Part shown: piece after piece, positions 18,701 through 45,099 of the stretch
How the letters are laid out: each line of letters begins with the position of its first letter
Position numbering within the stretch: the first letter of the stretch is position 1
NCBI RefSeq assembly: GCF_037042905.1
Contig: NC_087251.1
Location: 11,224,001 to 11,288,000 of the forward strand
DNA: 64,000 nt
Direction: 5' to 3'
DNA from: Lytechinus pictus
Lineage: Eukaryota
Made by a program: the position numbers and the translations under genes
The notes under the pieces: model-generated
Database searches by the model: none
Seen by the model: the letters and a program-made list of their open reading frames with translations, nothing else
Told to the model about the DNA's origin: nothing

Positions 18701-19671
18701 CCATTTGACGTTTATAAGCTTACAGCACAAAAAAGGGACTTCACCATGGCATATTAATAACCTCATTTTGTAGCTTGGTACAAGTGTCTATCATCTTGTC
18801 TTCAGATTTCATGCACTACCTTAACATAAACCTGGTGCAAACTCTGTATCATCAAGTTCTATTCATTCAGGTAAATCTAAACTATAGGCATCAAGCAATG
18901 CCATCATTTGTCATGAAAACCCTGCACATATGCCTGTACTCTCACAATGCTGATGTCACTTGACTACATTTTGAATTCATCTTTTTCCAAGAGTAAAGAT
19001 GTATAATCAATCCACCCATTCACATTTTGTTAAAAAAGATATAGTTTGATACCCCTTCTAGAATCTGAATAACAAATAGCAATGCTTGCTTTCCATAGTA
19101 AAGAACAATTTGAATCAATGGCAACTCTTAAAGATATGAACCAGGGGTGATTCACTAAGATCTAAAATGAATTTAAAATACTGAATAAATTTCATTCAAT
19201 TTTCGAGAGATGGAATCAATTTTACAAGATATTGCAAGGCTACAGCCTCTTCAAATTAACGTAAGCTCATAATGAAGAATCTCCAGTTGTCTCCATTAGA
19301 AATACTTCATATAGTCTTATTTTACATGATGATGTTATCATTTGAAGCCTTGGATAATGATACTGGCATCACACCCAGGTATGAGTATCATGTCCTCAAA
19401 AACAGGAAACGTGCACATTTTCAAGAGAACAGTGTTGCCAAGCCGACAATGTATAAGGAGATGAAAATGATGAACATAACAGCATCTGGTATTGTTGATA
19501 CAAGTTTCTTTTCCTGTAGCATAAAAAAAGGAATTATTATAACAGATGGGCATTAGAATACCGGTACATATGCCAACGAGAGTGGGGGATGACACAGTGA
19601 GGGAGAGAGAGAGATGTAGAGAGGAAGGAAAGCGAGCGAGAGAGGGGTGGTGTACACGAGGACATTACTAA

Positions 19672-19834: not shown

Positions 19835-20617
19835 TAAGTAGTAAGCTTTTTTCGTTTATAAACATACAAATTTATGCATGATTTAAAAAATTGGTATTAT
19901 TAATGACAACCCTGGCACATGCTTGTCTGAAATAACAAAAATTATTCATACAAACTGAGTTCCAAAAAATAGCATGAGAGCTAGAGTAGCTATGAAGTGT
20001 AACAAGAAAACTGGATACAGTGAACATGAAAACGAGCAAAAAAAATGTTCAAAATCAAATGGAAGATTAGAAGTCATGTATCTTTATATCTTTGTATAGT
20101 CTTATTTCTGGGTTTTTTTTAATGAAAGAACAGTGACATCATCCAGGGTGATTGTGATTCCTTTCCCAGGGCAGTAGATCAATTCATGTGCAATAATGAT
20201 TATAGAGGGGATGGAAATCTCATCAAATCATGTAGACGGCACATAAACATGCATTTCTTTCTCTTCCTGTTTAGAGTTTTTACATTATAGTCATGACAAT
20301 GTGTAACATTTCATTTTAGCTGGATAAATTCTGCTACTTTTCAATAAAAATGTCAATAGACATTATAATGCACCAGAAATTATTTTTTCCAGGGGCTAAA
20401 ATGCTGTTTTCCCAGGAGTAATAAAATTCGTACCTGGAATATAGCTATGATGACAACACTATGATTACAATATATGCAAGACAATTATATAATTTCCATT
20501 TGATAAATAAACACTAATTGTATACTGAAGATATTGATATATTGAGCACTTTCTATTAGTTGATGTGGTGCTTTATAAATAACCAAGGAGTTGCCACCAA
20601 TGTTATCATTTCTTTCT

Positions 20618-21404
20618 TCAGATACTAGAAAATAATGCTATTGTTAGTCTTTTGGCTCTCAATATCCCGAACAGCAAATATATTAAACAACTTACAGCTA
20701 TGGTCAACAACTGCTCCCCATCCTCTTCAGTATTGCCCTCTTTAGTTTTGAATCTCTTCAGCAATGGAAGGACGAAGAACAACAATAAAACAGCAGCAAT
20801 GATGAGAAAAATGTAAACCGTTGAAAAGAGCATAAAGTTGTACAAGTCTGTTTGTTCATGGGACTGGATCTGCACGAGGACGCTGAATCCTGCAAGGATG
20901 AGTTGTCCAAGAAAAGCCATCCCTACCATAAGAATCCTCTCTCCTGCCATTGGTGGGAGAAAGAACACACCCAGTGCTGCAAGTGATGTCATGATGGACG
21001 GTGCCACTAACTGAATAGGGGTGTTTGACGTTTCTGTGTTACTGATCATGTTAAAGTTGAAGGTTGCCAAGGAGATCGGTCCATGGGGGCTTGGTCTTGA
21101 TTGCACCTCCTGCTTGATAATCACTCCATCCAGCCACCACTCATCCTTAATGTCTTCAAGAGCTGTGACATCAGGTGGTGTGGCGTGGTACAAAATGGCG
21201 GCATGAGACTGTATTGCACAACCCATTTTCAAAGTACACCTCCGTCTCGTCTTTCCATTCATTTCATCGTCCAAACCATTGCTGCTTTCGTCACTTGGCT
21301 TCCCTTTGACACATGGTAGAGAGGCCTCCATGATACTCACGTCGGCCACCTTTCCACTCGCAAAAACAAGAACATTTTTAGAGCTGGTCTCCTTGGTAGC
21401 TACC
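20618..21404 (-). CDS. Cys-loop receptor exon 5 (rest of extracellular domain + M1-M4)
   Basis: tttttccttcag|G GTA GCT; corresponds to the 271-aa ORF 20618..21433. Confidence 0.9.
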
Positions 21405-24400
21405 CTGAAGGAAAAACAATGATGAGAAATCACCAGAAAAAAGCATGTTTTAAGTTAAATATTATCTTTTTTCGTGAATCTTGTGAATACTGGGGTCTCT
21501 GAGAAGGCAGGATAAGAAGACAGACTGAATTTAGATGACCCTATTATGATAAAACCAAACTGAATTATAAAATCATTGTACAAGAACATCCTATTTATGT
21601 ACATGTATGTGTACAGTAGATGCATTGGTTGTACATATCATTCTGGTCTAATTACCATTCGGTCTAATCAAAACTTGTTCTTATATATCCACTCAGGGTA
21701 CTTGTCTATTTACCTGTTGGACATAAAGTTTGAAGAAAATACTCTGATTGGAATGTCTTCCAAACTTTTTAATTTGCTTCTTGAATGAACAATTGAATAG
21801 GAAGCAATAGAAATAAGCTCCTTCTCTGATGCTTTAGAATGTTTCAGCCTATTTTGCTGTTAAAACTGAGGATAGACTAGTCAGATCTAACTATGTTTTA
21901 CATGTGTGTGTATTTTAAGAATTTGAAGTGAGATATCTAAACTCTTAAGGCTACATACTAAAACTTCTAAATTGATTTAGAAGAAATGAACCAAAAAAAA
22001 TAATGGTAATATGTTGTTAACAATACTTCATATAACTATATTTATAGATCTTTAATATGGTTTACCACCTGTTGGTCTAATTGCTATTTGGTCCAATTAA
22101 CACTTAGGGGGTGTGGCAAGAAAGTATTTGCGATCAATTTGCAAATATTCTGTTGCAATTTTACAATTGATGGATCAACTTTAGTTATAGCAAATCAGAT
22201 TAAACTTCTTGTTTCATGGAGTAGATTAGCAATCAATCGCAAATTTGCAATTAATTGCACGGCATATGCTTGATTTCGGGAACGAAAATAGACTTGCTAT
22301 TGATCGCAAGTTTCTTGCAACGCTTAGTCTAATATCCATGGGCTACTTGTCATTTTCTGAGTATTAGACAAACTAGCGTAATTAGAAAATTGAAGGATGT
22401 AGGCTGTTGAAGTAACAACTTAATCAACTACTGATATGCCTATGTTGTAGTCGTTGATGTTGATGTTATATTGGATGAAACCAAACATGTATTAGGTGAA
22501 CTGAGAGTGACAACTATTCTTCTGATTATGAATTTACATAAATAATTTTTAAAGCAGTTTTGATATATTTCTACAAAACTTGTTAGTAACACCCACAGAT
22601 CCTGAAAGCTTAGAGCCTTAAGCTTTTTCAACTTCATATTAGGAAATTAAACAATATGTCACCATGTCCAAGTGGAATATACTGTGTTTAATAGGAAGCC
22701 AAAATTGTGATGAGGGTTGCATTTTTCTGCCCATTAAAAAGATTTTAACAAGTCTTCTCAAAATATCTTTCTTCTCTTTGTCAACCTGTGTACTTTTCCA
22801 ATGTAAATATTTGTTATCGGAATAGGCTCAATTTTTGGTGTACTTAGCAGTTTCATTGATAGAAACTCCATTCCATTAAATCTCAGAGCACATTGTGTAT
22901 TCATTTTTGCAATCATCTTATTTCATCTTCATGTTTTGAAAGATGTATGAAAACTATTTTTTGATATTGCAAGTGTCTAATTGTAGTGATCTCATCTGAG
23001 GCAAGGAGCAATATGAAATTACATGGATGATTACTTTGACATACCCCATGTGTAATGTAGTATCAGGTTCCCAAACAGCATGTCTTGGAATGTAGATAGA
23101 TGTGATGTTATACTCCTCCATGTCCCAAGATAGTGTTTGGTCCATCCAGCTCTGTACGATGAAGATGCATGTGCAAGAGACGATAGGGAGAGTACAGGAA
23201 GGAGAGAGTATCAGAAGAGGGTGGAGAAGAGTGGGAATGTACAATTAGAAAGCAACTTGTTTAACGATTTTCACGTTCGGCTCACTACTCTGTATATCTC
23301 TCAATTCGCAAATAATAGCGCAACAAATTTAACATTTAAAGGTCAATTCCACCCCAGAAAAATGTTGATTTGAATAAATAGAGAAAAATCAAACTAGCAT
23401 AATGCTGAAAATTTCATCAAAATCGGATGTAAAATAAGTAAGTCATGACATTTTAAAGTTTCGCTTATTTTTCACAAAACAGTGATATGCACAACTCAGT
23501 GACATGCAAATGAGACAGACGATGATGTCCCTCACTCACTATTTATTTTGTTTTTTATTGTTTGAATTATATATACAATATTTCATTTTTTACAGATTTG
23601 ACAAATAGGACCAACTTGACTGAAGCATATAATATTAAACAATGCTAATTCCACATGTTCAGGAACTAATCGCTGTTTTACTTGACAATGAGGAGAAAAT
23701 TAGAATATTTAATATTTCATGTAATAAAATACAAAAGAAATAGTGATTGGATGACGTCATCAGTCTCCTCATTTGCATATCAACCAGGATGTGAATATAA
23801 CTGTTTTGTGAAATTAAGCGAAACTTTAAAATATCATAACTTTCTTATTTTACATCCGATTTTGATGAAATTTTCAGAGTTATGCTTGTTTGGATTTTTC
23901 TCTTTTTATTCAAATCAACATTTTGTTGGGTTGGACTTGTCCTTTAAGAATGACAATTGCTAATGATGAGCATTGATTATTAATTGTCTTTCCATGACCT
24001 TATTCGGGGAATTCTACTTCAATAATCATTTGGTAGAAATACATATTTCCAATTGAAAAAATATAGGCCTAAGTTAAGGGCATTTTAAAGTTGCTAAAAA
24101 GTATTCCAAAATAATTATTCGAATTTTATGCTTGTATCGTAGCCACCTCACCACCCATTATAATTATGGACCAATATGTAGATCTATTTTGAATATATTT
24201 CCGAGCAACATTAATCGTTTACTGCTGAAAAATAAAACACATATACTTCAATTTTATTCACTAACAAAAACGATGCAGTGGGCGCTTTGTCCATGGCAAA
24301 TGAAAGGGGAGGTTCCTTCGTGTATACCCGTGATTGATTTACAAGCTGCTGTGTGGATCTCACTAGAACATAATCTACCATCATTGTCTGGAAGATCATT

Positions 24401-27400
24401 AAATGATGGGAAATGGGGAAATAAAAGATAAATTTCATGAAGGTTTTGCGAAATAACAAAAATGAATGTTTATCATTTTCATTTTGTGACGTCATATGCG
24501 AACATCTGTCCCCGTAGGCCCATGTCCTGATTTCCACAACTTGCCATTAATTCGGGAATGTTTGATGATGACTAATTTGTATTTCTCTATAAAATGTGTA
24601 TAAAATAATTCTCAGAGAAATTAACATGTTGCGAAACTGCTCGGACGTGACGTCAAGAACTTATACAATCATAAAATATCCATAACTTTGTTATTCTTTG
24701 ATAGAATGCCGCTAAACCTTTATTAATATATTTTTCTTATTTCTACGTTTTTATTGTCACTAACTGGGTGTCAGGGTGGATTTCCCATTTTATAAAAACG
24801 ACCTCCTTTGTTTCTAACAAAACAATATTACCTGATAAAGTCCAAAGCATACTTTTACGGTGCCATCCGCTTCATTCTATTGGGGAAATAGAAAAGAAAG
24901 GAATGTAAGTTAAAGGACAAGTCCACCTTAGCAAAAAGTTGATTTGAATAATAAGAGAAAAATCCAACAAGCATAACACCGAAAATTTCATCAAAATCAG
25001 ATGTAAAATAAGAAAGTTATGACATTTTTAAGTTTCGCTTAATTTCACAAAACAGTTATATGCACATCCTGGTCGGTATGCAAATGAGGGGACTGATGAC
25101 ATCACTCACTCACTATTTCTTTTGTATTTTATTGTATGAAATATTAATTATTCTAATTTTCTCCTCATTATTCTGTGAGACAAAGTTTGATTCCTCCCTG
25201 AATTGTTATAACATCTTATGGTTGAGTTAAGTTGGTCCTTAATGTCAAATTGGTAAAAATTGAATATTGTATATTTCAAACAATAAAAAACAAAAGAAGT
25301 AGTGAGTGATGGACATCATCGACTCTCTCATTTACAAGTCACCGAGTTGTGCATAACTGTTTTGTGAAAAATAAGCGAAACTTTAAAATGTCATAACTTT
25401 CTTATTTTAAATCCGATTTCAATGAAATTTTCAGCATTATGCTTGTTTGATTTTTCTCTATTGATTCAAATCAACATTTTTCTGGGGTGGACTTGACCTT
25501 TAAGTGTGCTGTTGGGGACATGCATTACAGGGGGGAGGGGGTGGTGTTGATATTTAGGTACATAAATTATGCTAACTTCTAGAATCTGACAATGCACCTT
25601 TGTGTTGCAAACTCCCGAGGACCTTTTCATGAAAGTTGTTATCGCGAACACCTTGTCATTTCCCGACAGTCACCGAAGTTAAAGGGATGGTCTGGGCTGA
25701 AAAAAAAAATCTAAATAAATACAGTGCGTTTCAAAAAAAAAGTTTACACTTAGAAAAAATCTTATAAAATTACACATTTGTAATATCCTGAAGATTTTTC
25801 CACTTTTTAACATTGGTACAGATCCATTCAAGCAAATGATGATAAAACTGACGAAAAATATTTCCGCTTGAGTGAGCACCACTTACTTTTGAAAAGTGAG
25901 TGAAAAATGATTTGCGCAGAACTTTGAAATAGTTATGCGAATAAAAGTAGACCTTAATCATGAAGAACACGTGGAAATTAGCTAGTAAAATTGATTTGAA
26001 GATATCTTTTACCTTTTTTAATTTGTTTCCTTGCCCAAAACACTTCAAAATGCGCATTGAACCCCACCCCACTCCCCACACACCGAGGCCATTGTGACGT
26101 TATTTGCTTTACACTGAGCTGTGATTTACCTGAAATGGTTTAGGATTGATTTTCATTTTGATAATCATTGTCAAGCTTGGGAAAAGTGTGAAGAAACAAC
26201 TATTAAATGTAAAATGAAATGTAAACCCACTTTAAATGATAAAAACTTAGTAAAAAAAGATGCTGGAGATGTCTGATATAGACTTTTGTTCAGATTCAGT
26301 TATTTCCTCAGATCCAGCTGACACAAAAAGGATAAAGGTTGTGCTTACTAAGTGTTACAAAATTGTTACAAAATGCTTGAATGTATCCGTTTCATTTCAA
26401 TTGACTAAAAGTACAAGGAAAAATGTATGAGAAATGTTTCGCAGGGTAAGTTTGATTTCGCCCTTTCCTCTTGACACAGCGTGAAAACAAGCATTTCTGC
26501 GCAAACAGATTTCTTCGAGCTTTACGAAAATGGACAGTGCTCACTCAAGTGTAACATTCTGTCAAAACTTTTACTTTCATTGGATAGATGAGACCCAAAC
26601 CCAAGATTATATGTGAAAAAATTACCCACATGTTGTATTTTTTTAAATTCCCAGGGCTTTTTCAAAGTGTAAACTTTTTTTTTATACGCACTGTAGAGTA
26701 AAATTCACAGAGCAAAATGCTGAAAATTTCATCAGAATCGGAAAACAAACAACAAAGACATTGAATTTTAAAGTTTATCAATATTTTGTGAAAACAGTTA
26801 TATGCACATCGTCATGAATATTCATTAGGTGAGCTGATGATGTCACATCCCCACTTTCCTTTTACTTATGTTATTACATGGAATCACAAATTTTTCATTT
26901 TTTCTCACATGTGTAAATGGTGTGTCTCCATTATGATGAAATAAGTTGCAGCATAAATAACTAATGCACTTAATCAGTTGTCAATCCAATTGTTTCAGTT
27001 CTCGGTAGAAAAAAAATGAATAAACCTAATTTCATATAATAAAATACAAAAGAACAAGTGGGATATGACATCACCAACCCACCTAATGAATATTCATAAA
27101 GACATGCCTAGCACTGTTTCACATGAATAATGCAAATCTTTAAAATTCAATCACTTTGTTATTTGTTATCCGATTTTGATAAAATTTTCAACATTTTGCT
27201 TTGTGAATTTTACTCTATTTATTGAGATATAGATATCTCCAGCCTAGCTGGACCATCCCTTTAGAGTCTGACAACATGTGCGTCTTATAACCAATCAAAA
27301 TGAAGGAAAGAAAACATTTACCGGGTCATGATTAACATGTAGATTTAAACCGAATTATTCTACAATCTTCGAAAAATATGTTTTTAACAACAAGTTTGAT

Positions 27401-27962
27401 CCATGGAATACTTCGACGTTTTATTATCGCCCTTTAATAGTTTTGAAAGCCCCAAAGTAGCAGAATTCTATAAGGACATTTCGAACAATCCCCGACCAAA
27501 ATTTGCTTCATGCTACCCGTTAATAAAAAATTGGCCCTTCCTGATTTTGTTGGTGATTTTTTTTTTTAAGAGGGGGTGGTCAGATAAAATTTTGTGACAG
27601 TTTGTATTCCCCTGCTCTGACAGGTTTTAAATTTACCCTCAAGTCAGTGAAGAGCGCTCTTGCTTACGTACTTGAGGTTGGCCTGAAAATTGAAGGATGC
27701 GTTTTGGGTTTTTTTAAATAATAATCAATAATAAACAATAATCAGGATCTATTCTTACCACTTGCCCAATTTGATGTATAGATAACGCGACATTGATGGT
27801 AACAGCCACCGTATCTTGGTTGGGTGACATCAGCGCCTGGTAATCCATTAACATCTTCGTATATAGGCGCGATCGAACAGTATTGCCCGCTAATAGAAGA
27901 AATAAAATATATAAGCAATGGAATAATTAATTAAATAGCCTCATCCCCTTTCCCTCCCCATA

Positions 27963-28000
<38 letters not shown>

Positions 28001-28042
28001 TACTACTACTACTACTATACTACTACTACCACTACCACCACT

Positions 28043-28077
<35 letters not shown>

Positions 28078-31000
28078 AACTACTACGACTACTACCACTA
28101 CCACCACTACTACTACTATACTACTACTACTACTACAACTACTACGACTACTACCATTACCATGCACCACTACCACCACTACTACCACTACCATGCACCA
28201 CTACTACTACTACTACTTTGTACTAATGTTGTTGTTGTTGTTATTGGTGGTGGTGGTGGTGTGCTGCATGCTGCTACTACTATTACTTGTACCTACTATA
28301 CACCTACCACCACTTTGTTGCCGTTACTATTTTCTCCATATCCTGATAACATAAGATGCTCATAGTGGTTGTGTAAAATCCTTCACTTTCTCCAGGGATC
28401 AGTGTGGCGATCGGAATAGGAGATTGCCATTTAAACGAGAAACCAGATATCGATGATGAGGGGATGAGCCTCACCTCACCCCACCCCACTCTCCTGCCCT
28501 ATTTTCATCTCTCGGTGCCCCTTGATGAATTCAACCATGGACCTATAGGTCCATGATTCAACCACCTCGACTATCCATCCATACTTTTTACATTCAGCGC
28601 AATATTTTTATTTTTTTCGGAAAGAGAGTGAAATTATACCCTTGCGTGTACGGAGTTGATTTATAGCATGAGGCGTGTGATCATGACCATTGACCTGCCT
28701 TTTAATCCGAAAAATAAGAACATTGTAGGCATCCTGTTGTGATCTCTGCTGTTCTAATCTCTGTTACCAACAATGTCATTGTTTGACTCTCAATCATATC
28801 ATGTATTGAATTACTTTCCATGAAAAACTTATTTATCAACATGGAGTCATTGGGCGCAAACAGCAGAAGTCGCAATTGATAAAAATGTTAGAAATATTCG
28901 CGGAAGCAGGTGGATATTATATTTATGGAATTGAGTTTCACAAAAAAATGATACCAGGGATGAATTTGCCGTTATTAAGTTATTTTTTAGTTTGTTATTC
29001 TTCCATTTCCGGTTGTAGCTTATGCTAAATTCAGCCAATTCAGCGCGTAATTAGATAACTCCTTCAATTTTTTTCAAAGGATTCTTTAAGAATTTGTTTC
29101 CCTTTTTAAAGATATGTTTTCGATTTTCTTTCTTTTCCTCTCATTCCGTATCTTCTTTGATTTTTGTCATGTTTTTTTTTATAATAATTCCAGTCTTCAT
29201 CATCTAAGTGTCCGAGTCGTCAACAATCGAATATTTTCAAAACATGCTCATGATTATTGCTAAAATACTTGTTTTTCAATTTCTTTCTTCTTCTTATTCT
29301 ATTTTATTTTTTGGGGGGGTGGCTTATCAAAATTGTTGTCGATTCTCGCGTCACCAGAAAATACATCAGTACCAAAACTTGAATACATGAGCTTCAAATT
29401 CCTTCACCATTATCTCCACAATACATGTATCTTGTAATAAGGCATTAAATCCCATAAAATTATGTACACAATTTAATTCATTTTTCGAAAAGCGTAATAG
29501 ATACCAATAAAAATTATTATTATAATAATAACAACAACAATAAATACTAATAATTATGATAATGATAATAACGATAATGATGATGATGATGATGATGATG
29601 AAGATGATGCTGATGATGATGATGATGATGATATTTCATAAATCAAAAGTGTTGGTAAAATAAAAGATGACGACGGTGACGACCACGAGGATGATGATGG
29701 TAATGGTAATGCTGATGATGGTAATAATAAAAAAATATATATATTTCATAAATCAAAAGCGTTGATAAAGTAAAGGATGGCGGCGGGCCGTTGAAGACGA
29801 TTACGACGATGATGACGATGATGGTTATGATGATGATGGTGGTGGTGGTAGTAGTGATGATTATGGTGATGAAGATGGTGAAAGTGATGATGATGATGCT
29901 GATGATAGTAGTAGTGATAATGATAATAATGGTGATGATGATGATGATGATGGTGGTGGTGATGATGATTATGATAATTAGAAATTTATATAAAATAGGC
30001 TCAAAAATCCAGATACCAATATTGATACCGGTCAATGTTATTACAATTTCATTTTCTGACTGTATAACGTTATTGTTTGTCCATCATCCCTAATTAATTC
30101 ACGCATGAGTCGGCCATTATATTTCGAGTGTTCAGTAGAACGAAAATAATTAATTGCAAAATAAATTGATTGTTGAAACACGAGGATGACACGGACTTCT
30201 GCAGATAGTTTCACCATTAAAGCGTGGCATGCAAAATAAAGGCCGTTTAAAATTGGGAATATAGGCCTATACTGATATCTGATACTTTATATTGACTGAG
30301 TGGAATTTCGTTTAAGGGCATTTTGTACTATCGCCAAGGGAAAGGAACCGTTTTGCCACCTCTTGCCTATGTGTTTGAAATCAATCATACCATTCACAAA
30401 TATAACACTCGAAATAGTAAAAAAAAATCATATCTAACCCATATAAATAAACAGTATATGCAAAAATCAGTCAGATATACAGGCCCACAGTATGGAACTC
30501 ATTGCCAATTTCTATTACCATGATTACGGGGAACGTCTTCTTGAATACTTGAATTCTTGAATAAAAATCTTATAGTTTATTTGTTATCATATTAATTAAT
30601 TTCCATCTTGTACCTAAAACCATTCAATATTTACAATGATGGAATCTATGTAAAATTCCACCAGATTGAGAGATGGGGGTGGGGTTAGAACGAGGGGACA
30701 GGGGAGGGGGCAAGACGTTGAATTCAAATACATGCGCCATTTATATATTATCATTACACTCTATTATCTGTATTTAATTCACCTTTTGGACTAAAAAGCT
30801 TTCTATACAGATGTTTCTTTTACACATATTTTATGATCAATAATGCTTATTTTTCTTGTATATACATGTGTATTTCGTGAATGTACATATTTTGATGTTT
30901 TTAATGGAAAAGAATAAACAAATCAAGTGGAATAGGCGGGATAATGTCAAATAGTTACTGGTTGCCCGAAACATAATTATTACATGTGCATCTACCGTTA

Positions 31001-31196
31001 ACTTGTGAACGCATTTTTATAACCAACAAAGTGTATATCTGCAGATGATGTAGTTGATATCCTGCGAACTCAGATCTGTTTACATCTTGCAATTATTAAT
31101 ATAATAATTTATATAACTTTTAAATAGTGCAATTCTCAAACCTGTAAGGACTCTCAATGTATAAAACTCCCAAAACAACAAAAACGGTAATAACAT
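20618..31196 (-). CDS. Divergent pentameric ligand-gated ion channel (nAChR-like Cys-loop) subunit, 374 aa; complement(join(20618..21404,23045..23151,24832..24876,27759..27889,31142..31196))
   Basis: Exons of 55/131/45/107/787 nt splice in frame (1125 nt). Signal-like MLLPFLLFWEFYTLRVLTA; helix RSRLYTKMLMDY; SWMDQTLSWDMEEY...VWEPDTTL (WxDxxLxW, WxPD); C...CTLKMG; M1 LVAPSIMTSLAALGVFFLPP; GER at the start of M2; four hydrophobic segments. The 55-nt and 45-nt exons and their phases match the nAChR gene scaffold as remembered. Confidence 0.88.
22105..22324. mobile_element. Small MITE remnant
   Basis: GTGTGGCAAGAAA..TTGCGATCAAT / ATTGATCGCAAGTTTCTTGCAACGC inverted ends. Confidence 0.55.
23045..23151 (-). 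CDS. Cys-loop receptor exon 4
   Basis: atcgtacag|AGC...GG|gtatgt; SWMDQTLSWDMEEYNITSIYIPRHAVWEPDTTLHM. Confidence 0.92.
23340..23943. mobile_element. Kolobok-type MITE
   Basis: ttaa|AGG...CCT|ttaa; ~150-bp TIRs. Confidence 0.88.
24303..24789. mobile_element. Older Kolobok-type MITE remnant
   Basis: AAAGGGGAGGTTCC... start and ...CAGGGTGGATTTCCCATTT end; CCATAACTTTGTTATT block. Confidence 0.45.
24832..24876 (-). CDS. Cys-loop receptor exon 3 (45-nt beta2/loop D exon)
   Basis: tttccccaatag|AAT...CAG|gtaat; NEADGTVKVCFGLYQ. Confidence 0.85.
24914..25499. mobile_element. Kolobok-type MITE, inverted relative to 23340-23943
   Basis: ttaa|AGGACAAGTCCAC...GTGGACTTGACCT|ttaa. Confidence 0.88.
25683..27260. 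mobile_element. Kolobok-type MITE (second subfamily) hosting a Tc1-like insertion
   Basis: ttaa|AGGGATGGTC ... GACCATCCCT|ttag; left TIR resumes after 26695. Confidence 0.8.
25722..26693. mobile_element. Tc1/mariner-type non-autonomous element
   Basis: ta|CAGTGCGT.T(A)nGTTTACACTT ... AAGTGTAAAC(T)nATACGCACTG|ta. Confidence 0.85.
27759..27889 (-). CDS. Cys-loop receptor exon 2
   Basis: tttcttctattag|CG...GTG|gtaag; GNTVRSRLYTKMLMDYQALMSPNQDTVAVTINVALSIHQIGQV. Confidence 0.85.
27963..28215. repeat. (TAC/CAC)n microsatellite
   Basis: Direct inspection. Confidence 0.95.
28536..28555. mobile_element. 20-bp perfect palindrome between 7-bp direct repeats (transposon footprint or micro-element)
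   Basis: attcaac|CATGGACCTATAGGTCCATG|attcaac. Confidence 0.7.
29520..29980. repeat. (GAT/GGT/AAT)n low-complexity microsatellite with an internal duplicated unique block
   Basis: Direct inspection; ATATTTCATAAATCAAAAG.GTTG.TAA occurs twice. Confidence 0.9.
30340..30925 (+). mobile_element. LINE 3' remnant
   Basis: HKYNTRN...KSVRYTGP..WNSLP-type ORF2 tail followed by AT-rich UTR ending AATAAAC. Confidence 0.55.
31142..31196 (-). CDS. Cys-loop receptor exon 1 (signal peptide)
   Basis: ATG TTA TTA CCG TTT TTG TTG TTT TGG...CTT ACA G|gtttga; 55 nt, phase 1 fits the next exon. Confidence 0.7.
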
Positions 31197-31273
31197 GGGG
31201 GTTAACTACCGGAATAATATTATTCAAAGCTGTATTAAACCCCCCCCCCCCCTCCCCCGATGAGAATGTCTTA

Positions 31274-34200
31274 AGCAAGGTTTCCACTTTGGCGAGTTGG
31301 AGTTGCGAGTCATACGCGAGCTGCGCGAGCTCTAACTCGCCTTAGCTCGCACAAGCTCGCGTGAAATTTACATTTTCCCCTGGAATTTGCTTGAGTGACA
31401 AACGACTCAACATCGAGTTCACTACGCTCGTTGTACGAGTGAACCGAGCGCGAAACGAGTCAGACCGAGCTTAGTATGAGTTGCGGTGACCTTTATACGA
31501 CTTAAAGCGAGCTATGAACGAGTTATAAAGATTTTGTTACGAGTGATAAGAGTTTCATACGACCAAGGGGCGGGAAATGCACATTTTTGGCACTCAAAGA
31601 TGGATGCCGGCGGAAGCGGCGTCAACACCAAATCTTAACCGAAGGTTAAGTTTTTAAAATGGCATCATAACTTAGAAAGTATATGGACCTAGTTCATGAA
31701 ACTTGACCATAAGGTTTATCAAGCATTATAAAAGATCCTTCTCGAGTTTCAGGTCACAAGACCAAGGTCAGAGATCATTTATGGTCAATGAACGTAGACC
31801 ATGTTTAGGGAATCAACATCAAAATCTTAACCTACGGTTAAGTTTTTGAAATGTCATCATAACTTAGAAAATATATGAACCTTTTTCATGAAACGTGGAC
31901 ATAAGGTTATTAAAGTATATAAACATCCTGCTTGAGTTTCAAGTCACAAGTCAATTAGGGTCAATGCATGGACTTTGGCCAATTGGGGTATTTGTTAAAT
32001 TAACATAACTTTGAAAGTTTATGAATCTGATTCATGAAACTTGAACATAAGAGTAATCAGGTATCACTAAACATCCTGTGCAGATATCAGGTCACATGTC
32101 CAAGGTCAAAGGTCAATGAACTTTAGTGATGTTCGGGTGATCTGTTGAATTACCATCATAACTTTAAAAGTTTATAGATCTGATTCATGAATCTTGGACA
32201 TAAGAGTAATCAAGTATTCCTGAACATCCTGTGCGAGTTTCAGGTCACATGACGAAGGTCAAAGGTCATTTAAGGTCAATAAACTTTGGCCATGTTGGGG
32301 GTATTTGTTGAATTACCATCATAACTTTGAAAGCTTATGGATATGATTCATCAACTTGGATATTAGAGTAGTCAAGTATCACCGAACATTTCATGCCAGT
32401 TTCAGGTCACATGACCAATGTCAAAGGTCATTTAAGGTTATTGAACTTTGATCATTTTGGAGATTAATACTATAGTGCTGTCATAACTTTCAAAGTTTAG
32501 ATACAGTTTATAAAATGTGGATATAGGGGTAATCTAGTATCACTCACAAGTCTTAGGTCACATGATAAAGGTCAAATGTCATTTATTGTCAATGAACGTA
32601 GTATTGTATCAATGTATGAATGGTGTTTTTGTGAATAATTATTTTATAATAGTTTTCAGAGTCAGCACTACTTCTATATTGGGTAGCGTGATGCAGGTGA
32701 GACTGCCAGAGGCGCTCCACTTGGACCTTAATTGTCTATAATTTGGTGTCTTGTTCTTTTACCTTGGCTCTGCTCGTCATTGACCTCCTCTTCCGTTTCA
32801 ATTGTCCCTTCCTGCACTTCTTCTACCCTTGTTTGAATGTCATCTTCTTTCGCTGTTTCCTATCTGAATGGCCACAACTCTTGGATCTTTTGGATCGAGG
32901 CATATTTCTCTCCTTATTTGTTGAAAGTTGTAATAATGCAGTTGGAACAGCCTTTTTTAAAGTACGATGACTGCGTCGGTCAGTTAAAATGTGCGCTCAC
33001 TTTAAAATAAACTCCTCAAAAAAAGTTTGGAAATTCGACTTTAATCAAAACTCCCTCCTCAGTTTTAGTAAATATCAATTGTTATTAATATCAATGAATA
33101 GATCATTTAAGTGTCTTTAAAATGATACCCTACATGATATGATTATGGTTCACATGGAGGTGCAGTGCCTTGAAATGTAGGGCAAGGTCAAAATTCAATA
33201 TTAAGTTGCAAAGAGACACAATATTGAAAGTCACTGTTCCTTTTTCCGTGGTGATGAGTGAGTATTTTAAGCGGTTTCTTTTGAGTTCGATCGGTAATCC
33301 CGCCTCGGTTTTAGTAAATATCAATGTTGAATTAATATCAATGAATAGATCATTTAATTTTCTTTTAAAAGATACTTTCCATGGTATGATTTTTGCTCAC
33401 ATGGAGGTGCAGTGCCTTGAAATGCGGGGCACGGTCAAAATTCAAAATTTGCAAAATGACACAATATTGAAAGTCACTGTTCTTTTCTTTCATGATGATG
33501 AGTGAGATTATCAGCAATTGTTTTCATGCACTTTAACATCAACATTTAAATGGAATCAAACACACCTCTGCACAAGCAAACACACAGCAATCAAACATAA
33601 ACCACAACAAAACATTATGAAATGAAAAAGCAGGGGTTTGATTTGAATGGATTTTCATCTTTATTGACACAGACAAAAAAATCATGTTCTGTATTGACCC
33701 TTCATGATTACTTCTGCTCGTTTTGCAGCTTTTTACTTCAGACCTCATCCAACACTTATTAATTTTGCTCTTTTTTTATGGCATGATCATAACAAGCATG
33801 GGATCATTTTAAAGAGAATCAAATGATCTTTTGAAAGATATCAAATATGCATTGTGTAAAATTTGGAGTCGGGATAAATTAATGGCCAAACTCAGATTTC
33901 CAAACTTTTTTGCTCGTTTTGCAACTTTTCAATTCAGACTTTATCCAACACTTTTGAATCCTGCTCTTATCGTGATGGCATGATCATAACAAGCATGGTA
34001 CCATTGTAAAGAAAATTGAATGACCTTTTAAATGATGTCAAATATGCAATGTGTAAATTTTGGAGTTGGGGAAAATTAATGGTCAAATTCAGATTTCCAA
34101 ACTTTTTTGAGGGGTTTATATGTGGGGAAAATATAGATCACTGGACATTTATCATTCAGCTGGCATGCCTCTGAGCTATTGCAACGCACTCGGAATAAAC

Positions 34201-34675
34201 TCATACGAAACTCGCTGTAACTCGGGGTGCTCGATCTAAAGTCGCGCTAATCTCGTGGGCACCTCCAGTTGATTCGTAAAACGATCGCAATGCTCGTATC
34301 TCGCTCTTGAAAACTCGGAATGCACTCGCGTATACTCAGATGTGGCGAGTTATTACGAGTTATTGTGAGTTTATCTCGAGCTTCTTACGAGTTATTGCGA
34401 GTACTGCGAGTATATAACGAGTTTAGGTGAGTTCAGCACGAGTTACAGCGAGTTAGCAAATTTTTTGAACATGTTCAAAATTTAGAAACTGCTCACGATT
34501 TCATGGAGAGTTGTCCCGAGCTTGAACGAGCTCCGCCGAGCCATGCCGAGTTGTCGCGAGTTATCCCGAGTTTCATGGTGAGCTTTATGCGAGTTATCGC
34601 GAGTGCCTCATTTTGGCAACTCGCTATAACTCGCCATAACTCGTGATGTTAACTCGCCAAAGTGGAAACCTTGCT
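31274..34675. mobile_element. PIF/Harbinger-type non-autonomous element, copy A (3.4 kb)
   Basis: tta|AGCAAGGTTTCCACTTTGGCGAGTT ... AACTCGCCAAAGTGGAAACCTTGCT|tta; TTA TSD; CGAGTT-rich subterminal regions. Confidence 0.88.
31606..32722 (+). mobile_element. 5'-truncated HINE/Helentron element nested in copy A
   Basis: GGCGGCGTCAACACCAAATCTTAACC ... ATGCAGGTGAGACTGCCAGAGGCGCTCCACTTG. Confidence 0.8.
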
Positions 34676-34678
34676 TTA

Positions 34679-37600: not shown

Positions 37601-38071
37601 CCTGAAACTCAGGAAGGATGTTTAGTAATGCTTGATAAACCTTATGGTCAAGTTTCATGAACTAGGTCTATATACTTTCTAAGTTATGATGCCATTTCAA
37701 AAACTTAACCTTCGGTTAAGATTTGGTGTTGACGCCGCCGCCGCCGGCATCCATCTTTGAGTGCCAAAAATGTGCATATCCCGCCCCTTGGTCGTATGAA
37801 ACTCTTATCACTCGTAACAAAATCTTTATAACTCGTTCATAGCTCGCTTTAAGTCGTATAAAGGTCACCGCAACTCATACTAAGCTCGACCTGACTCGTT
37901 TCGCGCTCGGTTCACTCGTACAGCGAGCGTAGTGAACTCGATGTTGAGTCTTTTGTCACTGAAGCAAATTCCAGGAAAAAATGTTAATTTCACGCGAGCT
38001 TGTGCGAGCTAAGGCGAGTTAGAGCTCGCGTATGACTCGCAACTCCAACTCGCCAAAGTGGAAACCTTGCT
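34679..38071. mobile_element. PIF/Harbinger-type non-autonomous element, copy B, inverted relative to A
   Basis: Same 25-bp TIRs; TTA at 34676-34678 and 38072-38074; reverse complement of copy A along its length. Confidence 0.88.
36620..37749 (-). mobile_element. 5'-truncated HINE/Helentron element nested in copy B
   Basis: Reverse complement of 31606-32722 with the same junctions. Confidence 0.8.
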
Positions 38072-38199
38072 TTAGAATACATGACTGACAATAGTAGATG
38101 CTTTTTGACGGAGCTTATTTACAAGTTATGACATTCATAATCATCTCATCTTTTCACAATCGTTTTTCCTTGCCAAATTGTTATTATTGAAGTTATTCA

Positions 38200-38700
38200 A
38201 ATTCAACTTGTTTTATTCTCTCAGTAAAATCATACATATAAACAATTATGATACAAAGTTAAATACACGTATTACAAATCGGTGTACAATTATGAAATTG
38301 CATTATGATTCAGAGTTGTACTGAGGGGTAGCAGCCAAAAGGGGAAAATCCTTATACAATAGGCCGACCTATTTTACTAATAAACAATATATGCTATATA
38401 CTTTTATATACCGTACATACAATATGTACATTAAATTAACTCATTTAACAACAATTTGCCTATATATTCACGAATACTTTTATATATGCTTTCTAAATTT
38501 ACGTTTGCTTTGAAATTTGCGTAGAGGCTATTCAGTAATAAAACTAGAATACAATATTAATGCTAAGACAATGAAATACAACGCAAAACGGTATACTCAA
38601 TACCTTTGAGCAAGTCAATTCTTTTTAAGGGATTTTTTATAAAGGGATTCAGCTACTATGTCATATCTTTATACTGTCATTATTATTGATAACAATAGTA
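38200..38700 (-). mobile_element. Probable LINE 3' remnant
   Basis: TTTATT start, GGGGTAGCAGCC...GGCCGACC stem, decayed coding-like tail. Confidence 0.4.
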
Positions 38701-38949
38701 GTAGCAACTAGCAACAATAATAAATTGATATACTTTCTTTAAAAAAGGGGGGTAAATTTTAGCGATTCATGACAGAGTTGTCATCTTTATGGTGTTTTTT
38801 TTACAACGTCAAAACGACATTTCTTCCATTCAGTATTTAATCCAACTATCATCGAAATATTTGTGTCACCTTTCCACTAGAAATCAAGCTTTCTGGTAAT
38901 TTTCAGCTCGCGCTTCGCGCACACATCAATTGTTTGGTTAATATAACTT

Positions 38950-40185: not shown

Positions 40186-40581
40186 CTTTCATCAGATCAT
40201 CTACTCTGCTTCAAGTCGAATTTCTTTTTTTGTCATCACTTATCTAATGAAAAGAAATCTAGTAACCGTTTTGATGAACTATGTTGGCATATGGCTTATT
40301 ACCCTCTGTCACTATCGTGGCGTTGTTGTTGTTTTTTCTTTCTTTTCGTTTTTAATCTAGTTGATGATATTTTTAAGTAATATTTATTCTGTTTGAAAAC
40401 CTTTTTATTATTCGATAATCAGTTACACAATTTTATAATATTTGTTTCATATTAGGGTGATATTGCACATTATAGATATCCTAAAGTCATTTTAAGACAT
40501 TTAATGAGCAACTCTATATACTTCTTTTACATGTATCTGTTCTTATACTTTCGCTAAAACATACGTAGTCCTTTTTCAGCT

Positions 40582-43009: not shown

Positions 43010-45099
43010 TTAATAAGTCGATACCATCAATCGTGAACTGAACGTCACGGAAGATCTATATGAAATCATGACAATGAGTGAAGAATATAGAATTTTTCAA
43101 TTGCCCATGTTTTGATTAATATCAAATATGACTTAATGGCAGATGAATAGAATTAAAGATATGGCCTGCACATTTCGGTAAATACTAAACAGTGAATTTG
43201 CCATACTGTCCAGTATTTTTTTGTTTCTCAATTCGTAAAATTGCCTTGGTATCTGATCGAACTGCAACTTGTAGGGGATCTTTTTCATCTCGGCTAATTG
43301 CCAAAGGTCACGCTGTCTAGACACTGTAAGATTTTGATAAGGGTATTGGTATATAGAGGTGAGATCTAATAACAAAACTGCTAAAACAAAACTTTTCCCC
43401 AATATTGGCTGAAGAGTTGATATGCATGTTTGTTGGGTAAATCTATGTTATGAGCATTGCCCAATTTTGCGCTAGAATTTACACACAAAACAATTGTTTT
43501 CTCTCTTAAGAAAAAGGACAAAATAACCGATGAGTTTTTCGGTGAATATATGCGCATGTATCCGACCAAAAGAAAGTATAATAAAAACAAATGACAATTA
43601 CTTATATGCAAACTCACCTGCGAAATGCAGTAAACAAGAAGCGGCTAACAAAAGACATATCATGGTGGTTTTAGCATCAAACGATCCCAAATATGCCATA
43701 CTGTTCCTGCCAGGGCAGTGATGTCAGAGAGCGGAGAGCGACGTGACTGGATTCCCCATCGACCGACTGCCACACTGAAGCTGAAATTCAATTTCCCTCC
43801 CCACCCAGCTTACTTCAGACTTTCCACCAAATTGATGAGAACCCAAGAATGATGTCATCTGTTTATCTCAACAGTTCTTGTCGTTGTTGTCGTCGGTTGA
43901 AATTGGTCTAAGGTTATATTAGCTGTGTGAACTATGCACTCGGTGCCTCTTGGAATACCCAAGTTTATATGTTATAATCATGATACTCCACCGGCTGATA
44001 AAAGTGGTTTAAGCACACCGTAGACATGGTAGATGTGATGGGGTGAGGGTATTATTAAAGGTACTGGGATTGGGACGAGATTCATTGTGGAGTGGTGTTT
44101 CCATGGCAGCAATCCATTTGACTGTATTTTACAATAATGTTTGACTTATCGCAGGCATATACTATACGTCAGTATGTTTCTAAAGTCAAAATTGACGAGA
44201 GAAAATGGCCAGAGTTCAGGTACAAAGTGAAAGTTAAACAAGATGATAATTAGTTTTAAACTTTGATCATTCCACTATCGAAGAAGTTCGGTGTGATTTC
44301 CTTCATGTCTGTTCTTTAAGACAGGATTTTTCCCCACTTCATATTTGAATTCATGTTTTCCATTGCTATTATTTTTTCTATCCGCATGAATCAATAATCA
44401 CAACCGGAGCATGCAGTAGGTGTATTTTACCATGGACCTTATACAAATTCGAAAGCGAACACTGTTTGACATGCATGCATGTATACAAGCAGTGAATATA
44501 CATCAATAAGGGTAAAGAAATGTCTTGACAAAGAAAAATGGTGTAACCTAAACTGTAGGTTGGCATATGGTATTTTGAAGGGGCCGCAGAACTGGTTTTT
44601 AAAAATGGGGGGGGGGGGGGTGGACAACAAATAGATGGAAACTCATGGGGCTTCATGTGATACCGTTACTGTCATATTTCTGTATCTATTTGAGTAACAT
44701 ATTTTACTCAATAATATCTAATATGATAGTCATATCATCATGGAAACATGATACAAGTTTGGCTTGTATTAATGTATTATCTTAAATAATCCACGTATTG
44801 AAGTAATAAACGATATCAAATTCATTGAGCGAAAAAACCGACTTGTTAATGCATTTGTTGTCATTCAATAAGATTTTATTACCTCCAGATTTTTTGTTTT
44901 TTAGGGGGGCTCCCTCCCCCCCCCCCCCTTCATTATAAATAACGATCGTCTTTATCCCTAAGGAACGGTCAACATGGTCAATGGTAAAGCTCGGTTGAAT
45001 AATCTGTCAAAAAAAGTTTTTAAAAATATATGCCCCGAGTATATCTGAACCCACGAGAGTTATGCCTAACAATCACTTGTTGATACGTAATATTTACTG

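What the first reader, a model, noticed from the sequence alone, without database searches (positions are those of the whole stretch)
20618..31196. Intact but radically remodelled nAChR-like channel: candidate non-cholinergic (sensory-type) Cys-loop receptor
Seen: a complete, stop-free 374-aa spliced ORF with the nAChR exon scaffold. Aligned by eye to alpha7, every aromatic-box residue is gone: loop A Tyr is H (PDTTLH), loop B Trp is A (KMGCAI vs KFGSW), loop D Trp is G, and loop C has no Tyr and no vicinal CC (EVQSRPSPHGP). Established: these residues bind ACh, and cephalopod chemotactile receptors are nAChR-derived channels that lost the ACh site and have short intracellular loops. Inference: this may be an independently evolved orphan receptor family detecting another stimulus, or a modulatory subunit.
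Basis: partly seen in the sequence, partly recalled or inferred. Interest (0 to 1): 0.85.

Follow-up and report, generated by a model that had tools for sequence, protein, structure and literature searches.

The report
Divergent sea-urchin Cys-loop receptor subunit
This is a real, spliced and expressed sea-urchin gene for an acetylcholine-receptor-like channel subunit that has lost both its acetylcholine-binding residues and the family's hallmark proline loop while keeping a conserved pore; databases name it automatically but nobody appears to have studied it.

Summary
There is an intact nAChR-like gene on the minus strand, and all five aromatic-box positions and the loop-C Cys pair are replaced. 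Its first exon (31196-31142) has no support, and its last 25 residues are intron read-through.

The real gene has six GT-AG coding exons (43699-19421) and encodes 388 aa. From M40 it is identical to a Lytechinus pictus RefSeq protein. A spliced 1877-nt contig matches the exon 2-6 junctions without mismatch.

Orthologues are found only in echinoids: Lytechinus, Strongylocentrotus and Diadema. The gene is single-copy with no neighbouring paralogue.

- The Cys-loop is C-x24-C, hydrophilic, and lacks [F/Y]PxD.
- The M2-M3 proline is absent.
- The pre-M1 Arg is polymorphic (R/S).
- M1-M3 is the most conserved part.

It is not a cephalopod-type chemotactile receptor: it is multi-exon, unexpanded, and closest to ambulacrarian short-loop nAChR-like genes. 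My best reading is a non-cholinergic, probably accessory, subunit of a pentameric cation channel. It is a new variant of a known kind, of moderate interest.

The parts
43618..43699 (-). Coding exon 1 (ATG at 43699; 82 nt): signal peptide MAYLGSFDAKTTMICLLLAASCLLHFA, with a GTGAGT donor at 43617.
   Evidence: tblastn of P0001 and the sequence read. The same peptide is conserved in L. variegatus and S. purpuratus models and in Logan contigs. It was not covered by the read lay, which ended at 27950.
27759..27889 (-). Coding exon 2 (131 nt): N-terminal helix and beta1 (AGNTVRS...IGQV).
   Evidence: X1 contig piece 27759-27891.
24832..24876 (-). Coding exon 3 (45 nt): NEADGTVKVCFGLYQ. It holds the beta1-beta2 loop and the loop-D position (G83 where alpha7 has Trp).
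   Evidence: The 45-nt gap in the X1 contig record (positions 1569-1613) fits this exon.
23045..23151 (-). Coding exon 4 (107 nt): SWMDQ...WEPDTTLHMG. It holds loop A (H120 at the Tyr position).
   Evidence: X1 contig piece 23044-23151. Pfam Neur_chan_LBD E 1.7e-08 on this ORF alone.
20696..21404 (-). Coding exon 5 (709 nt): the rest of the extracellular domain, M1, M2, M3 and most of the short M3-M4 linker.
   Evidence: X1 contig piece 20695-21403 is colinear with 0 mismatches, so the internal GTGAGT at 21340 is not used.
21236..21313 (-). Enlarged Cys-loop, C153-x24-C178 (VKGKPSDESSNGLDDEMNGKTRRR): 11 charged residues, no [F/Y]PxD. The tip is N-G-K-T where relatives have F-P-F-D.
21041..21043 (-). 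Codon 243, the pre-M1 position. It is AGT (Ser) in the window. It is Arg in the other haplotype (X2 contig), in XP_054758916.1 and in L. variegatus, and Lys in S. purpuratus and Diadema.
   Evidence: The column is Arg in at least 90% of the 63 aligned relatives.
20876..20941 (-). M2 pore helix, E277 (-1') to L298 (20'): ERILMVGMAFLGQLILAGFSVL. By alignment the pore-facing positions are 2' L, 6' M, 9' L, 13' I and 16' G.
   Evidence: The AF2 model has a helix at 277-302.
19421..19513 (-). Coding exon 6: EKKLVSTIPDAVMFIIFISLYIVGLATLFS plus TGA, which is the real M4. The 3' UTR continues below 18800.
   Evidence: X1 contig piece 18800-19512 is joined directly to 20695. The exon is conserved in Strongylocentrotus and Diadema.
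20618..20695 (-).
   Evidence: GTAAGT donor at 20695-20690. It is skipped in the spliced X1 contig and present in an unspliced X2 contig.
31142..31196 (-). It is in frame and has a GT donor, but it has no counterpart in any orthologue or database model.
   Evidence: Orthologue sequences. tblastn places the orthologous N-terminus at 43699.

Best explanation
Identity (about 0.9). This is the Lytechinus pictus orthologue of an echinoid-restricted, single-copy gene for a very divergent subunit of the pentameric ligand-gated channel (Cys-loop) superfamily. It descends from nAChR-like genes with short intracellular loops.

Shown by the sequence:
- a signal peptide, a beta-sandwich extracellular domain, four membrane helices and a roughly 20-residue M3-M4 linker;
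- a cation-type -1' glutamate (A-G-E-R);
- an unusually hydrophobic M2 (2' L, 6' M, 9' L, 13' I by alignment).

It cannot bind acetylcholine in the canonical way on either face. Loops A, B, C and D have H, A, R/SP/I and G at the aromatic and Cys-Cys positions.

The interface that normally transmits binding to the pore is rebuilt:
- the beta6-beta7 loop is C-x24-C, charged, and has N-G-K-T in place of F-P-F-D;
- the M2-M3 proline is missing;
- the pre-M1 arginine is R/S polymorphic.

Mechanism (inferred, about 0.45; the confidence value given for this explanation refers to this mechanism). It acts as a non-ligand-binding accessory subunit. It takes one or more places in a heteropentamer with canonical echinoid subunits, such as the 361-aa short-loop paralogue XP_054768711. 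It contributes its conserved M1-M3 to the pore and so tunes conductance or gating, while its ligand loops are free to drift.
For: Gene and transcript. There are six exons with GT-AG borders, giving a 1167-nt stop-free CDS. The product is identical to XP_054758916.2 over all 349 of that protein's residues. An 1877-nt contig of run X1 joins exons 6-5-4-(3)-2 at exactly these borders with 0 mismatches. Raw RNA reads of X19 and X20 cover the three exon-5 bins, while the adjacent unique intron bins (20024-20635, 21554-21859) read 0.

Fold. Pfam Neur_chan_LBD scores E 7.9e-20. The AF2 model built from 63 sequences has pLDDT 85.5, with a beta-sandwich and helices at 250-270, 277-302, 307-344 and 350-387. 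Foldseek's best hit is alpha7, E 1.2e-22. VIA-align gives Z 23-24, and the extracellular domain alone fits at rmsd 1.8-2.6 A. hhalign against canonical relatives gives probability 99.95% over 361 columns, including M1-M4.

Long-term constraint. Open orthologous frames exist in L. variegatus, S. purpuratus, D. antillarum and D. setosum. M1-M3 identity to these is 100/84/53%, against 90/54/21% for the C-terminal half of the extracellular domain. All 11 L. pictus-L. variegatus differences in the mature protein lie in the 220 extracellular residues and none in the 139 from M1 onward. By my arithmetic the chance of that is (220/359)^11, about 0.005.

Loss of binding and coupling residues.

For an accessory role. 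The gene is single-copy and solitary. Both faces of the binding site are degenerate and not conserved even among echinoids: loop B is GCA/GCR/GNF and loop C is SRPSPH/TIASLP/GSPWQE. The pore is conserved. Canonical short-loop partners exist in the same genome (P0032).
Against: No partner, co-expression or current was tested, so the accessory role is an inference from analogy. The known accessory subunits I recall (vertebrate alpha5, beta3, 5-HT3B-E) mostly keep the FPFD loop.

Fast change confined to the ligand-binding half could equally reflect diversifying selection on a ligand pocket. No dN/dS could be computed.

A fully hydrophobic M2 is also present in the canonical asteroid relatives, so it is not specific to this gene.

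Pfam Neur_chan_memb does not match at E <= 1. The pore-facing assignment rests on alignment only; no coordinates were inspected.

Exon 1 was not covered by the read lay.
Confidence: 0.45

Rival explanations
1. It is an orphan receptor in its own right. It forms a homopentameric (or self-sufficient) cation channel gated by a non-cholinergic stimulus, such as a small molecule, a proton or metal, or a macromolecule. The remodelled pocket or the enlarged charged beta6-beta7 loop would be the sensor.
For: All ACh-contact residues are replaced while the fold is intact. The extracellular half bearing loops B, F and C evolves fastest, as reported for octopus CR pockets (passage of PMC11526382). A G-K pair at the loop tip and C184 next to the loop-B position are invariant in 6 of 6 echinoid sequences, so parts of the new surfaces are constrained. 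The -1' Glu is kept.
Against: The gene is single-copy, unexpanded and multi-exon, unlike chemosensory repertoires. The putative pocket residues are not conserved between Lytechinus and Diadema, so there is no shared ligand. Five copies lacking the Pro-loop, the Asp, the M2-M3 Pro and, in one allele, the pre-M1 Arg would have none of the residues found at 88-100% across 561 pLGICs (Table 1 of PMC4795631). No homomer evidence was obtained.
Confidence: 0.3
2. It has a non-channel role. The pLGIC scaffold would be kept as a membrane-anchored binding, decoy or assembly factor, with a permanently non-conducting hydrophobic pore.
For: The pore-line residues are hydrophobic at 2', 6', 9' and 13'. The ECD-TMD coupling motifs are lost. 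Pfam Neur_chan_memb does not match.
Against: M2, including the -1' Glu and 0' Arg ring, is the most conserved segment, which is hard to explain if ions never pass. Canonical asteroid relatives share the hydrophobic M2.
Confidence: 0.12
3. It is a decaying gene: a recent pseudogene, or a gene under relaxed constraint that merely remains open.
For: The near-invariant pre-M1 Arg is R/S polymorphic. A second haplotype carries 3 nonsynonymous and 3 synonymous differences in exon 5. Unspliced or intron-retaining forms are common among assembled contigs: X2, and P0156 and P0158 with four 213-aa members. The newest RefSeq model starts at M40 without a signal peptide.
Against: Frames of 386-394 codons are open in five named species across the Lytechinus-Diadema split. 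M1 onward is 100% identical between the two Lytechinus species. A correctly spliced transcript exists. The three nonsynonymous variants all lie in linker or loop positions.
Confidence: 0.03

Closest known systems
Alpha7-type nicotinic acetylcholine receptor subunits (best solved-structure match by sequence: 9viq_A, E 2.6e-14)
   Same: Both have the same fold, the two Cys-loop cysteines and a cation-type G-E-[KR] ring before M2. The N-terminal exon pattern, including the 45-nt exon, also matches; the alpha7 exon sizes are recalled, not tested.
   Different: None of the five aromatic-box residues is present and there is no Cys-Cys pair. The Cys-loop has 24 rather than 13 residues and lacks FPFD. 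There is no M2-M3 Pro. The M3-M4 loop is about 20 residues. The 2' and 6' positions are hydrophobic. Identity is about 20%.
Ambulacrarian short-loop nAChR-like subunits (Acanthaster XP_022108687.1, Patiria XP_038072797.1, Amphiura XP_072026173.1, L. pictus XP_054768711)
   Same: They are 360-385 aa long with a very short M3-M4 loop. They share the M1 motif APS[IV].TSL, FL.PP..GER before M2, and a hydrophobic M2. They are the nearest groups in the trees, although the join is weak (SH-aLRT 84; unresolved).
   Different: These relatives keep C-x13-C with YP[FY]D, the loop-B Trp, the loop-C Cys-Cys and the M2-M3 Pro. The echinoid gene sits on a stem of about 2 substitutions per site.
Cephalopod chemotactile receptors (CRT1/CRB1)
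   Same: They are nAChR-derived, do not use acetylcholine, and have a fast-evolving pocket (passages of PMC11526382 and PMC10338036).
   Different: CRs are described as intronless and expanded. This gene has six exons and one copy. Sequence similarity to CRT1 chains is much weaker than to alpha7 (E 4.5e-07 over residues 36-119, against 2.6e-14 over 16-311). Any resemblance is convergent. No CR sequence was available for the trees.
Alpo4, the orphan nAChR-like receptor of Alvinella pompejana
   Same: It is an invertebrate nAChR-like receptor that remained an orphan after large ligand screens. A need for an accessory subunit was discussed (passages of PMC10338036).
   Different: Alpo4 keeps the aromatic cage (F103, W159, Y199, Y205, W65) and a long intracellular domain. 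The urchin protein keeps neither.
Schistosome and other 'Cys-less' pLGICs
   Same: They are metazoan pLGICs with an atypical beta6-beta7 loop (whole text part 1 of PMC9874803).
   Different: This is the converse case. They lost the cysteines but keep F/YPxD. The urchin gene keeps the cysteines and lost F/YPxD.

Membership tests
Pentameric ligand-gated ion channel (Cys-loop / 'Pro-loop') superfamily | Extracellular beta-sandwich recognised by Pfam Neur_chan_LBD | tested here: met
   E 7.9e-20, 71.6 bits (cut-off 26), but only residues 34-153 match profile positions 2-126 of 216.
Pentameric ligand-gated ion channel (Cys-loop / 'Pro-loop') superfamily | Four-helix transmembrane domain (Pfam Neur_chan_memb, or the fold) | tested here: inconclusive
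   There is no Neur_chan_memb match at E <= 1. However, the AF2 model has four helices. Full-length structural matches reach Z 23-24. hhalign aligns M1-M4 to canonical relatives at probability 99.95%.
Pentameric ligand-gated ion channel (Cys-loop / 'Pro-loop') superfamily | Beta6-beta7 loop with [F/Y]PxD; the Pro was 100% conserved in 561 sequences (Table 1 of PMC4795631) | tested here: not met
   N-G-K-T stands at those columns, where P and D are in at least 90% of 63 aligned relatives. Of 122 hits of 330 aa or more, 112 have C-x13-C with the Pro, and 3 more keep [FY]PxD with other Cys spacing. Three are this family, and 4 lack it and were not resolved.
Pentameric ligand-gated ion channel (Cys-loop / 'Pro-loop') superfamily | Cys-loop disulfide pair with 13 residues between the cysteines | tested here: not met
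   Both cysteines are present (C153, C178; invariant). The spacing is 24, and 26-29 in the other family members. The disulfide itself is not testable here.
Pentameric ligand-gated ion channel (Cys-loop / 'Pro-loop') superfamily | Pre-M1 Arg and M2-M3 Pro (94% and 88% conserved in PMC4795631, Table 1) | tested here: not met
   Codon 243 is Ser in the window, Arg in the other allele, and Lys in S. purpuratus and Diadema. The L. pictus, L. variegatus and Diadema M2-M3 loops hold no Pro (QIQSHEQTDLYNF); S. purpuratus has one Pro, whose equivalence to the canonical position was not checked.
Acetylcholine-gated nicotinic receptor subunit | Aromatic box (loop A Tyr, loop B Trp, loop C two Tyr, loop D Trp) and, for alpha subunits, the loop-C Cys-Cys pair | tested here: not met
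   H120, A185, R225, I232, G83 and S227-P228 stand at those positions. Diadema keeps only the loop-D Trp.
Acetylcholine-gated nicotinic receptor subunit | Cation-type ring G-E-K/R at -2' to 0' | tested here: met
   A-G-E-R is invariant in 5 of 6 echinoid sequences; D. setosum has A-R-E-R.
Cephalopod chemotactile receptors | Membership of the cephalopod CR clade; intronless, tandemly expanded genes | tested here: not met
   The gene has six exons, one copy and no neighbouring LBD exon on the contig within about 5 Mb. Its nearest relatives are echinoderm and hemichordate genes. No CR sequence was in the trees, so clade membership is judged from E-values and taxonomy only.
Acetylcholine-binding protein (soluble) | Extracellular domain only, with no membrane helices | tested here: not met
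   Four predicted helices follow the domain. The resemblance is limited to a hydrophilic Cys-loop without FPFD; that property of AChBP is recalled.

The most novel reading that the evidence does not exclude
This may be a naturally occurring 'Pro-loop-less' Cys-loop receptor that still works as a channel. Echinoids would have kept, since before Lytechinus and Diadema split, a pentameric cation channel that has lost the one residue reported as invariant across the superfamily, together with its Asp/Arg salt-bridge partner pattern, the M2-M3 proline and the whole orthosteric aromatic cage. Binding-to-gate coupling would then run through a new, enlarged, charged beta6-beta7 loop with a conserved G-K tip, or the channel would be gated by something other than an orthosteric ligand. 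That would be a different solution to coupling in this superfamily.
Probability: 0.2. Interest if true: 0.75.

Novelty: new variant of a known kind. Interest (0 to 1): 0.5.

Why it matters
1. It is a natural test of how indispensable the Pro-loop and the ECD-TMD coupling residues are. Those residues were reported as 88-100% conserved across 561 pLGICs (PMC4795631, passages and Table 1 seen). Here they are gone while the pore stays conserved.

2. The automatic database names for this gene imply cholinergic or serotonergic function that the sequence cannot support. The names are nAChR alpha-L1-like, unc-63-like, unc-38-like, beta-4-like and 5-HT3A/3B-like. Transcriptome surveys that read urchin 'nAChR subunits' by such names could be misled (for example PMC12467107, passages seen).

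3. The host species is, as I recall, a sea urchin in which stable knock-out lines can be raised, so the function is testable.

Tried and rejected
- Run search: no RNA holder is listed on record for exon 5. The lay of four runs was used instead.
- Strand of the raw reads: in the exon-5 bins X19 has first mates on the minus strand only, and X20 on both. There are too few reads to call a strand.
- Complex prediction with two copies of residues 30-388: no verdict, score 0.02 against a mark of 0.32. It is not used for or against assembly. The tool did not use my alignment.
- The first AF2 run, with only the 6 orthologues, gave pLDDT 54. It was superseded by the 63-sequence run.
- An internal intron at the GTGAGT of 21340, which would shorten the Cys-loop, was rejected. 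The spliced contig is colinear over 20695-21403, and all orthologues carry the segment.
- Read-through tail as an alternative M4: the tails of L. pictus, the S. purpuratus cluster and P0004 share only V-S, which comes from the GTAAGT donor, and they end at different places. Rejected.
- Profile search with the 6-orthologue alignment found only the same three clusters at E <= 1e-10. Only the 8000 candidates sharing most words were scored.
- Earlier notes of this scan: nothing by place or by sequence.
- Literature: 0 papers hold any of six RefSeq accessions of the family. Searches found no paper on this gene. I therefore say 'not found in the held library', not 'unpublished'. Supplements were not searched.
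- Protein Atlas: the nearest clusters are short arthropod nAChR-like groups (score 0.97). This is a lead only.
- dN/dS was not computed, because no orthologous coding DNA was reachable with the tools.

Full report
WHAT IS THERE

The window is AT-rich animal DNA (GC 0.30-0.41). The largest ORF (21454-20618) found two database proteins. One is a 388-aa 'acetylcholine receptor subunit alpha-L1-like [Lytechinus pictus]' at 98% identity. The other is an unnamed 382-aa protein at 66%.

tblastn of these proteins back onto the window gave six collinear pieces from 43699 down to 19424. Reading the borders showed GT-AG at every junction. The coding exons are:
- exon 1, 43699-43618
- exon 2, 27889-27759
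- exon 3, 24876-24832 (45 nt)
- exon 4, 23151-23045
- exon 5, 21404-20696
- exon 6, 19513-19421

Joined, they give 1167 nt with no internal stop. The 388-aa product is identical to XP_054758916.2 over all 349 residues of that protein. It differs from version .1 at Q91P and S243R. The window is therefore L. pictus, or an indistinguishable genome.

Its 374 aa are reproduced exactly by 31196-31142 plus exons 2-4 plus 21404-20618. The middle four exons are right.

The first exon is an in-frame ATG-to-GT stretch, but it has no counterpart in any orthologue. The exon at 43699 encodes a signal peptide that is shared with L. variegatus, S. purpuratus and spliced contigs of a Strongylocentrotus-like species.

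The last 25 residues run past the GTAAGT donor at 20695. The true M4 lies 1.2 kb further on.

TRANSCRIPT

Run X1 holds an 1877-nt contig whose pieces are 18800-19512, 20695-21403, 23044-23151 and 27759-27891. A 45-nt gap in the record between the last two pieces fits exon 3. There are 0 mismatches. This is a spliced mRNA with exactly the predicted junctions 6-5, 5-4 and (3)-2.

A further 131 nt of that contig lie upstream of the laid stretch. The exon 1 junction is therefore inferred, not shown.

Run X2 holds unspliced pieces across exon 5 and its introns, on a second haplotype. Two raw RNA-seq runs, with about 6% of each read, put 0.5-1.7x on the three exon-5 bins. They put 0 on the unique intron bins beside them.

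FAMILY AND RANGE

phmmer against 1.84 billion cluster representatives gave 740 hits at E <= 0.001 but only three at E <= 1e-30:
- P0002, 69% identity
- P0003, 37% identity
- P0004, 43% identity, partial

The next hit was at 4.7e-17.

Cluster look-ups named members from L. pictus, L. variegatus, S. purpuratus, Diadema antillarum and D. setosum. A profile of six orthologues recovered only the same three clusters at E <= 1e-10.

In the window's own 812-Mb assembly the last exon has one match, and the whole protein has no paralogous match better than E 0.005. The genome has 91 exon-level Neur_chan_LBD matches, and none lies near this locus.

In a 43-row quick tree and a 32-row careful tree the seven family rows form one clade (SH-aLRT 100; bootstrap/SH-aLRT 100/100). 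The clade sits on a stem of about 2 substitutions per site.

Its attachment is unresolved. The nearest groups are short-loop nAChR-like proteins of starfish, a brittle star and L. pictus itself, and then hemichordate proteins. I left out of the trees the fragments and multi-domain predictions among the 150 listed hits, and I cut the read-through tail of P0004.

ANATOMY

Pfam sees only the first 120 residues of the ligand-binding domain (E 7.9e-20) and no membrane domain. The fold is nevertheless canonical:
- AF2 with 63 sequences gives pLDDT 85.5 and pTM 0.71, with low confidence only in the signal peptide, the Cys-loop insert and the linkers.
- Foldseek's best hit is alpha7, E 1.2e-22.
- VIA-align gives Z 23-24 for full-length 5-HT3A and nAChR chains. 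For extracellular domains alone it gives rmsd 1.8-2.6 A over about 200 residues.
- Profile-profile alignment to 18 canonical relatives covers 361 columns, including M4.

At the ACh site the three alignments agree:

| Site | Canonical residue | This protein |
|---|---|---|
| Loop D | Trp | G83 |
| Loop A | Tyr | H120 |
| Loop B | Trp | A185 |
| Loop C | Tyr / Cys-Cys / Tyr | R225 / S227-P228 / I232 |

Among echinoids these positions are themselves variable. Diadema keeps the loop-D Trp and has Arg at loop B.

The two Cys-loop cysteines are kept but enclose 24 residues, and 26-29 in the other members. Eleven of the 24 are charged in L. pictus.

The insertion lies in the first half of the loop. 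The distance from the loop tip to the second Cys is canonical. At the tip, N-G-K-T replaces F-P-F-D. G172 and K173 are invariant in 6 of 6 orthologues.

Jaiteh et al. (PMC4795631; passages and Table 1 seen) report conservation in 561 sequences from all kingdoms as follows:
- this Pro, 100%
- the Asp, 93%
- the pre-M1 Arg, 94%
- the M2-M3 Pro, 88%

Here the first two are absent. The Arg is Lys in Strongylocentrotus and Diadema and R/S polymorphic in L. pictus. The L. pictus, L. variegatus and Diadema M2-M3 loops have no Pro.

Among the 122 hits of 330 aa or more, the Cys-loop status is as follows:
- 112 have C-x13-C with the Pro.
- 3 keep [FY]PxD with different Cys spacing.
- 3 are this family.
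- 4 lack it and look like exon-skipped predictions; I did not resolve those.

PORE AND CONSTRAINT

The -1' Glu and 0' Arg are kept. By alignment the pore line is L280, M284, L287, I291 and G294, which is all hydrophobic. Starfish relatives share this feature.

Identity of L. pictus to L. variegatus, S. purpuratus and D. antillarum by region:

| Region | L. variegatus | S. purpuratus | D. antillarum |
|---|---|---|---|
| M1-M3 | 100% | 84% | 53% |
| N-terminal half of the extracellular domain | 98% | 69% | 30% |
| C-terminal half of the extracellular domain | 90% | 54% | 21% |
| Cys-loop | 92% | 48% | 21% |

All 11 differences between the two Lytechinus species are extracellular.

The second L. 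pictus haplotype differs in exon 5 at three synonymous sites and three nonsynonymous sites (R175I, S243R, S248T). All three nonsynonymous sites are in loops or linkers.

Open frames in five species, the uneven pattern of change and a spliced mRNA together exclude a recent pseudogene. A formal dN/dS could not be run.

INTERPRETATION

Shown: a real, expressed, conserved, echinoid-restricted pLGIC-fold subunit that lacks the residues needed for canonical ACh binding and for canonical coupling.

Inferred: it still sits in a pentameric cation channel, because the pore segment and its charged ring are the most conserved part. My preferred mechanism, at about 0.45, is a non-binding accessory subunit of a heteromer. 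The reasons are:
- Both faces of the site are degenerate and drift among echinoids.
- The gene is single and solitary.
- One odd subunit among five is easier to reconcile with loss of the coupling residues than five.

The main rival, at about 0.3, is a self-sufficient orphan receptor with a new stimulus. The fast-evolving binding half would fit that equally well. A non-channel role (about 0.12) and decay (about 0.03) follow.

COMPARISON

The gene works, at most, like a cephalopod chemotactile receptor in having abandoned ACh, but it is not one. It has six exons and one copy, it occurs in a deuterostome lineage, and its sequence is closer to alpha7 than to CRT1.

It differs from Alpo4, which keeps the aromatic cage. 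It is the mirror image of the 'Cys-less' flatworm channels, which keep FPxD.

No paper on this gene was found in the held library. It exists in RefSeq only under automatic, mutually inconsistent names.

VERDICT

It is a new variant of a known kind, with interest about 0.5.

Noticed in passing
window 31324-38030: A roughly 6.7-kb near-perfect palindrome lies inside intron 1. Its arms are about 3.3 kb and 95-97% complementary, centred near 34672 with a 69-nt spacer. The arms contain 153-197-nt tandem units. It looks like a foldback-type element.
   Followed up: partly
window 38947-40186: A minisatellite of about 34 copies of a 35-39-nt unit (CTGTCTGTCATCACTCGACGTTCTGTTCATCTTGT...) lies in intron 1. 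It gives long spurious ORFs on both strands.
   Followed up: no
window 23300-27300: Introns 2 and 3 are filled with high-copy repeats. Summed contig depth reaches 30,000-49,000 in runs X1 and X2, against 15-29 for the gene's exons, with many chimeric joints.
   Followed up: no
window 27963-28217, 29556-29975 and 58000-60600: There are long trinucleotide arrays (TAC x87, ATG x26, GAT x54). There is also a strongly CT-skewed low-complexity block (GC skew -0.29, AT skew -0.34) that yields 120-200-aa pseudo-ORFs.
   Followed up: no
window 21041 (codon 243) and 21246 (codon 175): Within-species protein polymorphism occurs at the pre-M1 Arg position (S/R) and in the basic run before the second Cys-loop cysteine (R/I). 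It was seen in run X2 and, for S/R, in the two RefSeq versions.
   Followed up: yes
proteins P0156-P0159, P0162, P0163 (S. purpuratus cluster); window 20324-21437 in run X2: Intron-5-retaining or unspliced forms are frequent among assembled contigs and older gene models. They would encode a protein without M4. RefSeq also lists a 349-aa isoform starting at M40 without a signal peptide in both Lytechinus species.
   Followed up: partly
protein P0164 (D. antillarum, separate 2.69-Mb contig): A second, N-terminally truncated, near-identical copy of the Diadema orthologue sits on another contig. It may be a haplotig or a recent partial duplicate.
   Followed up: no
residue C184 (window 21220-21218): A third extracellular cysteine lies next to the loop-B position. 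It is invariant in 6 of 6 named echinoid orthologues but is Asn in P0004. It has no obvious disulfide partner if C153-C178 pair.
   Followed up: no
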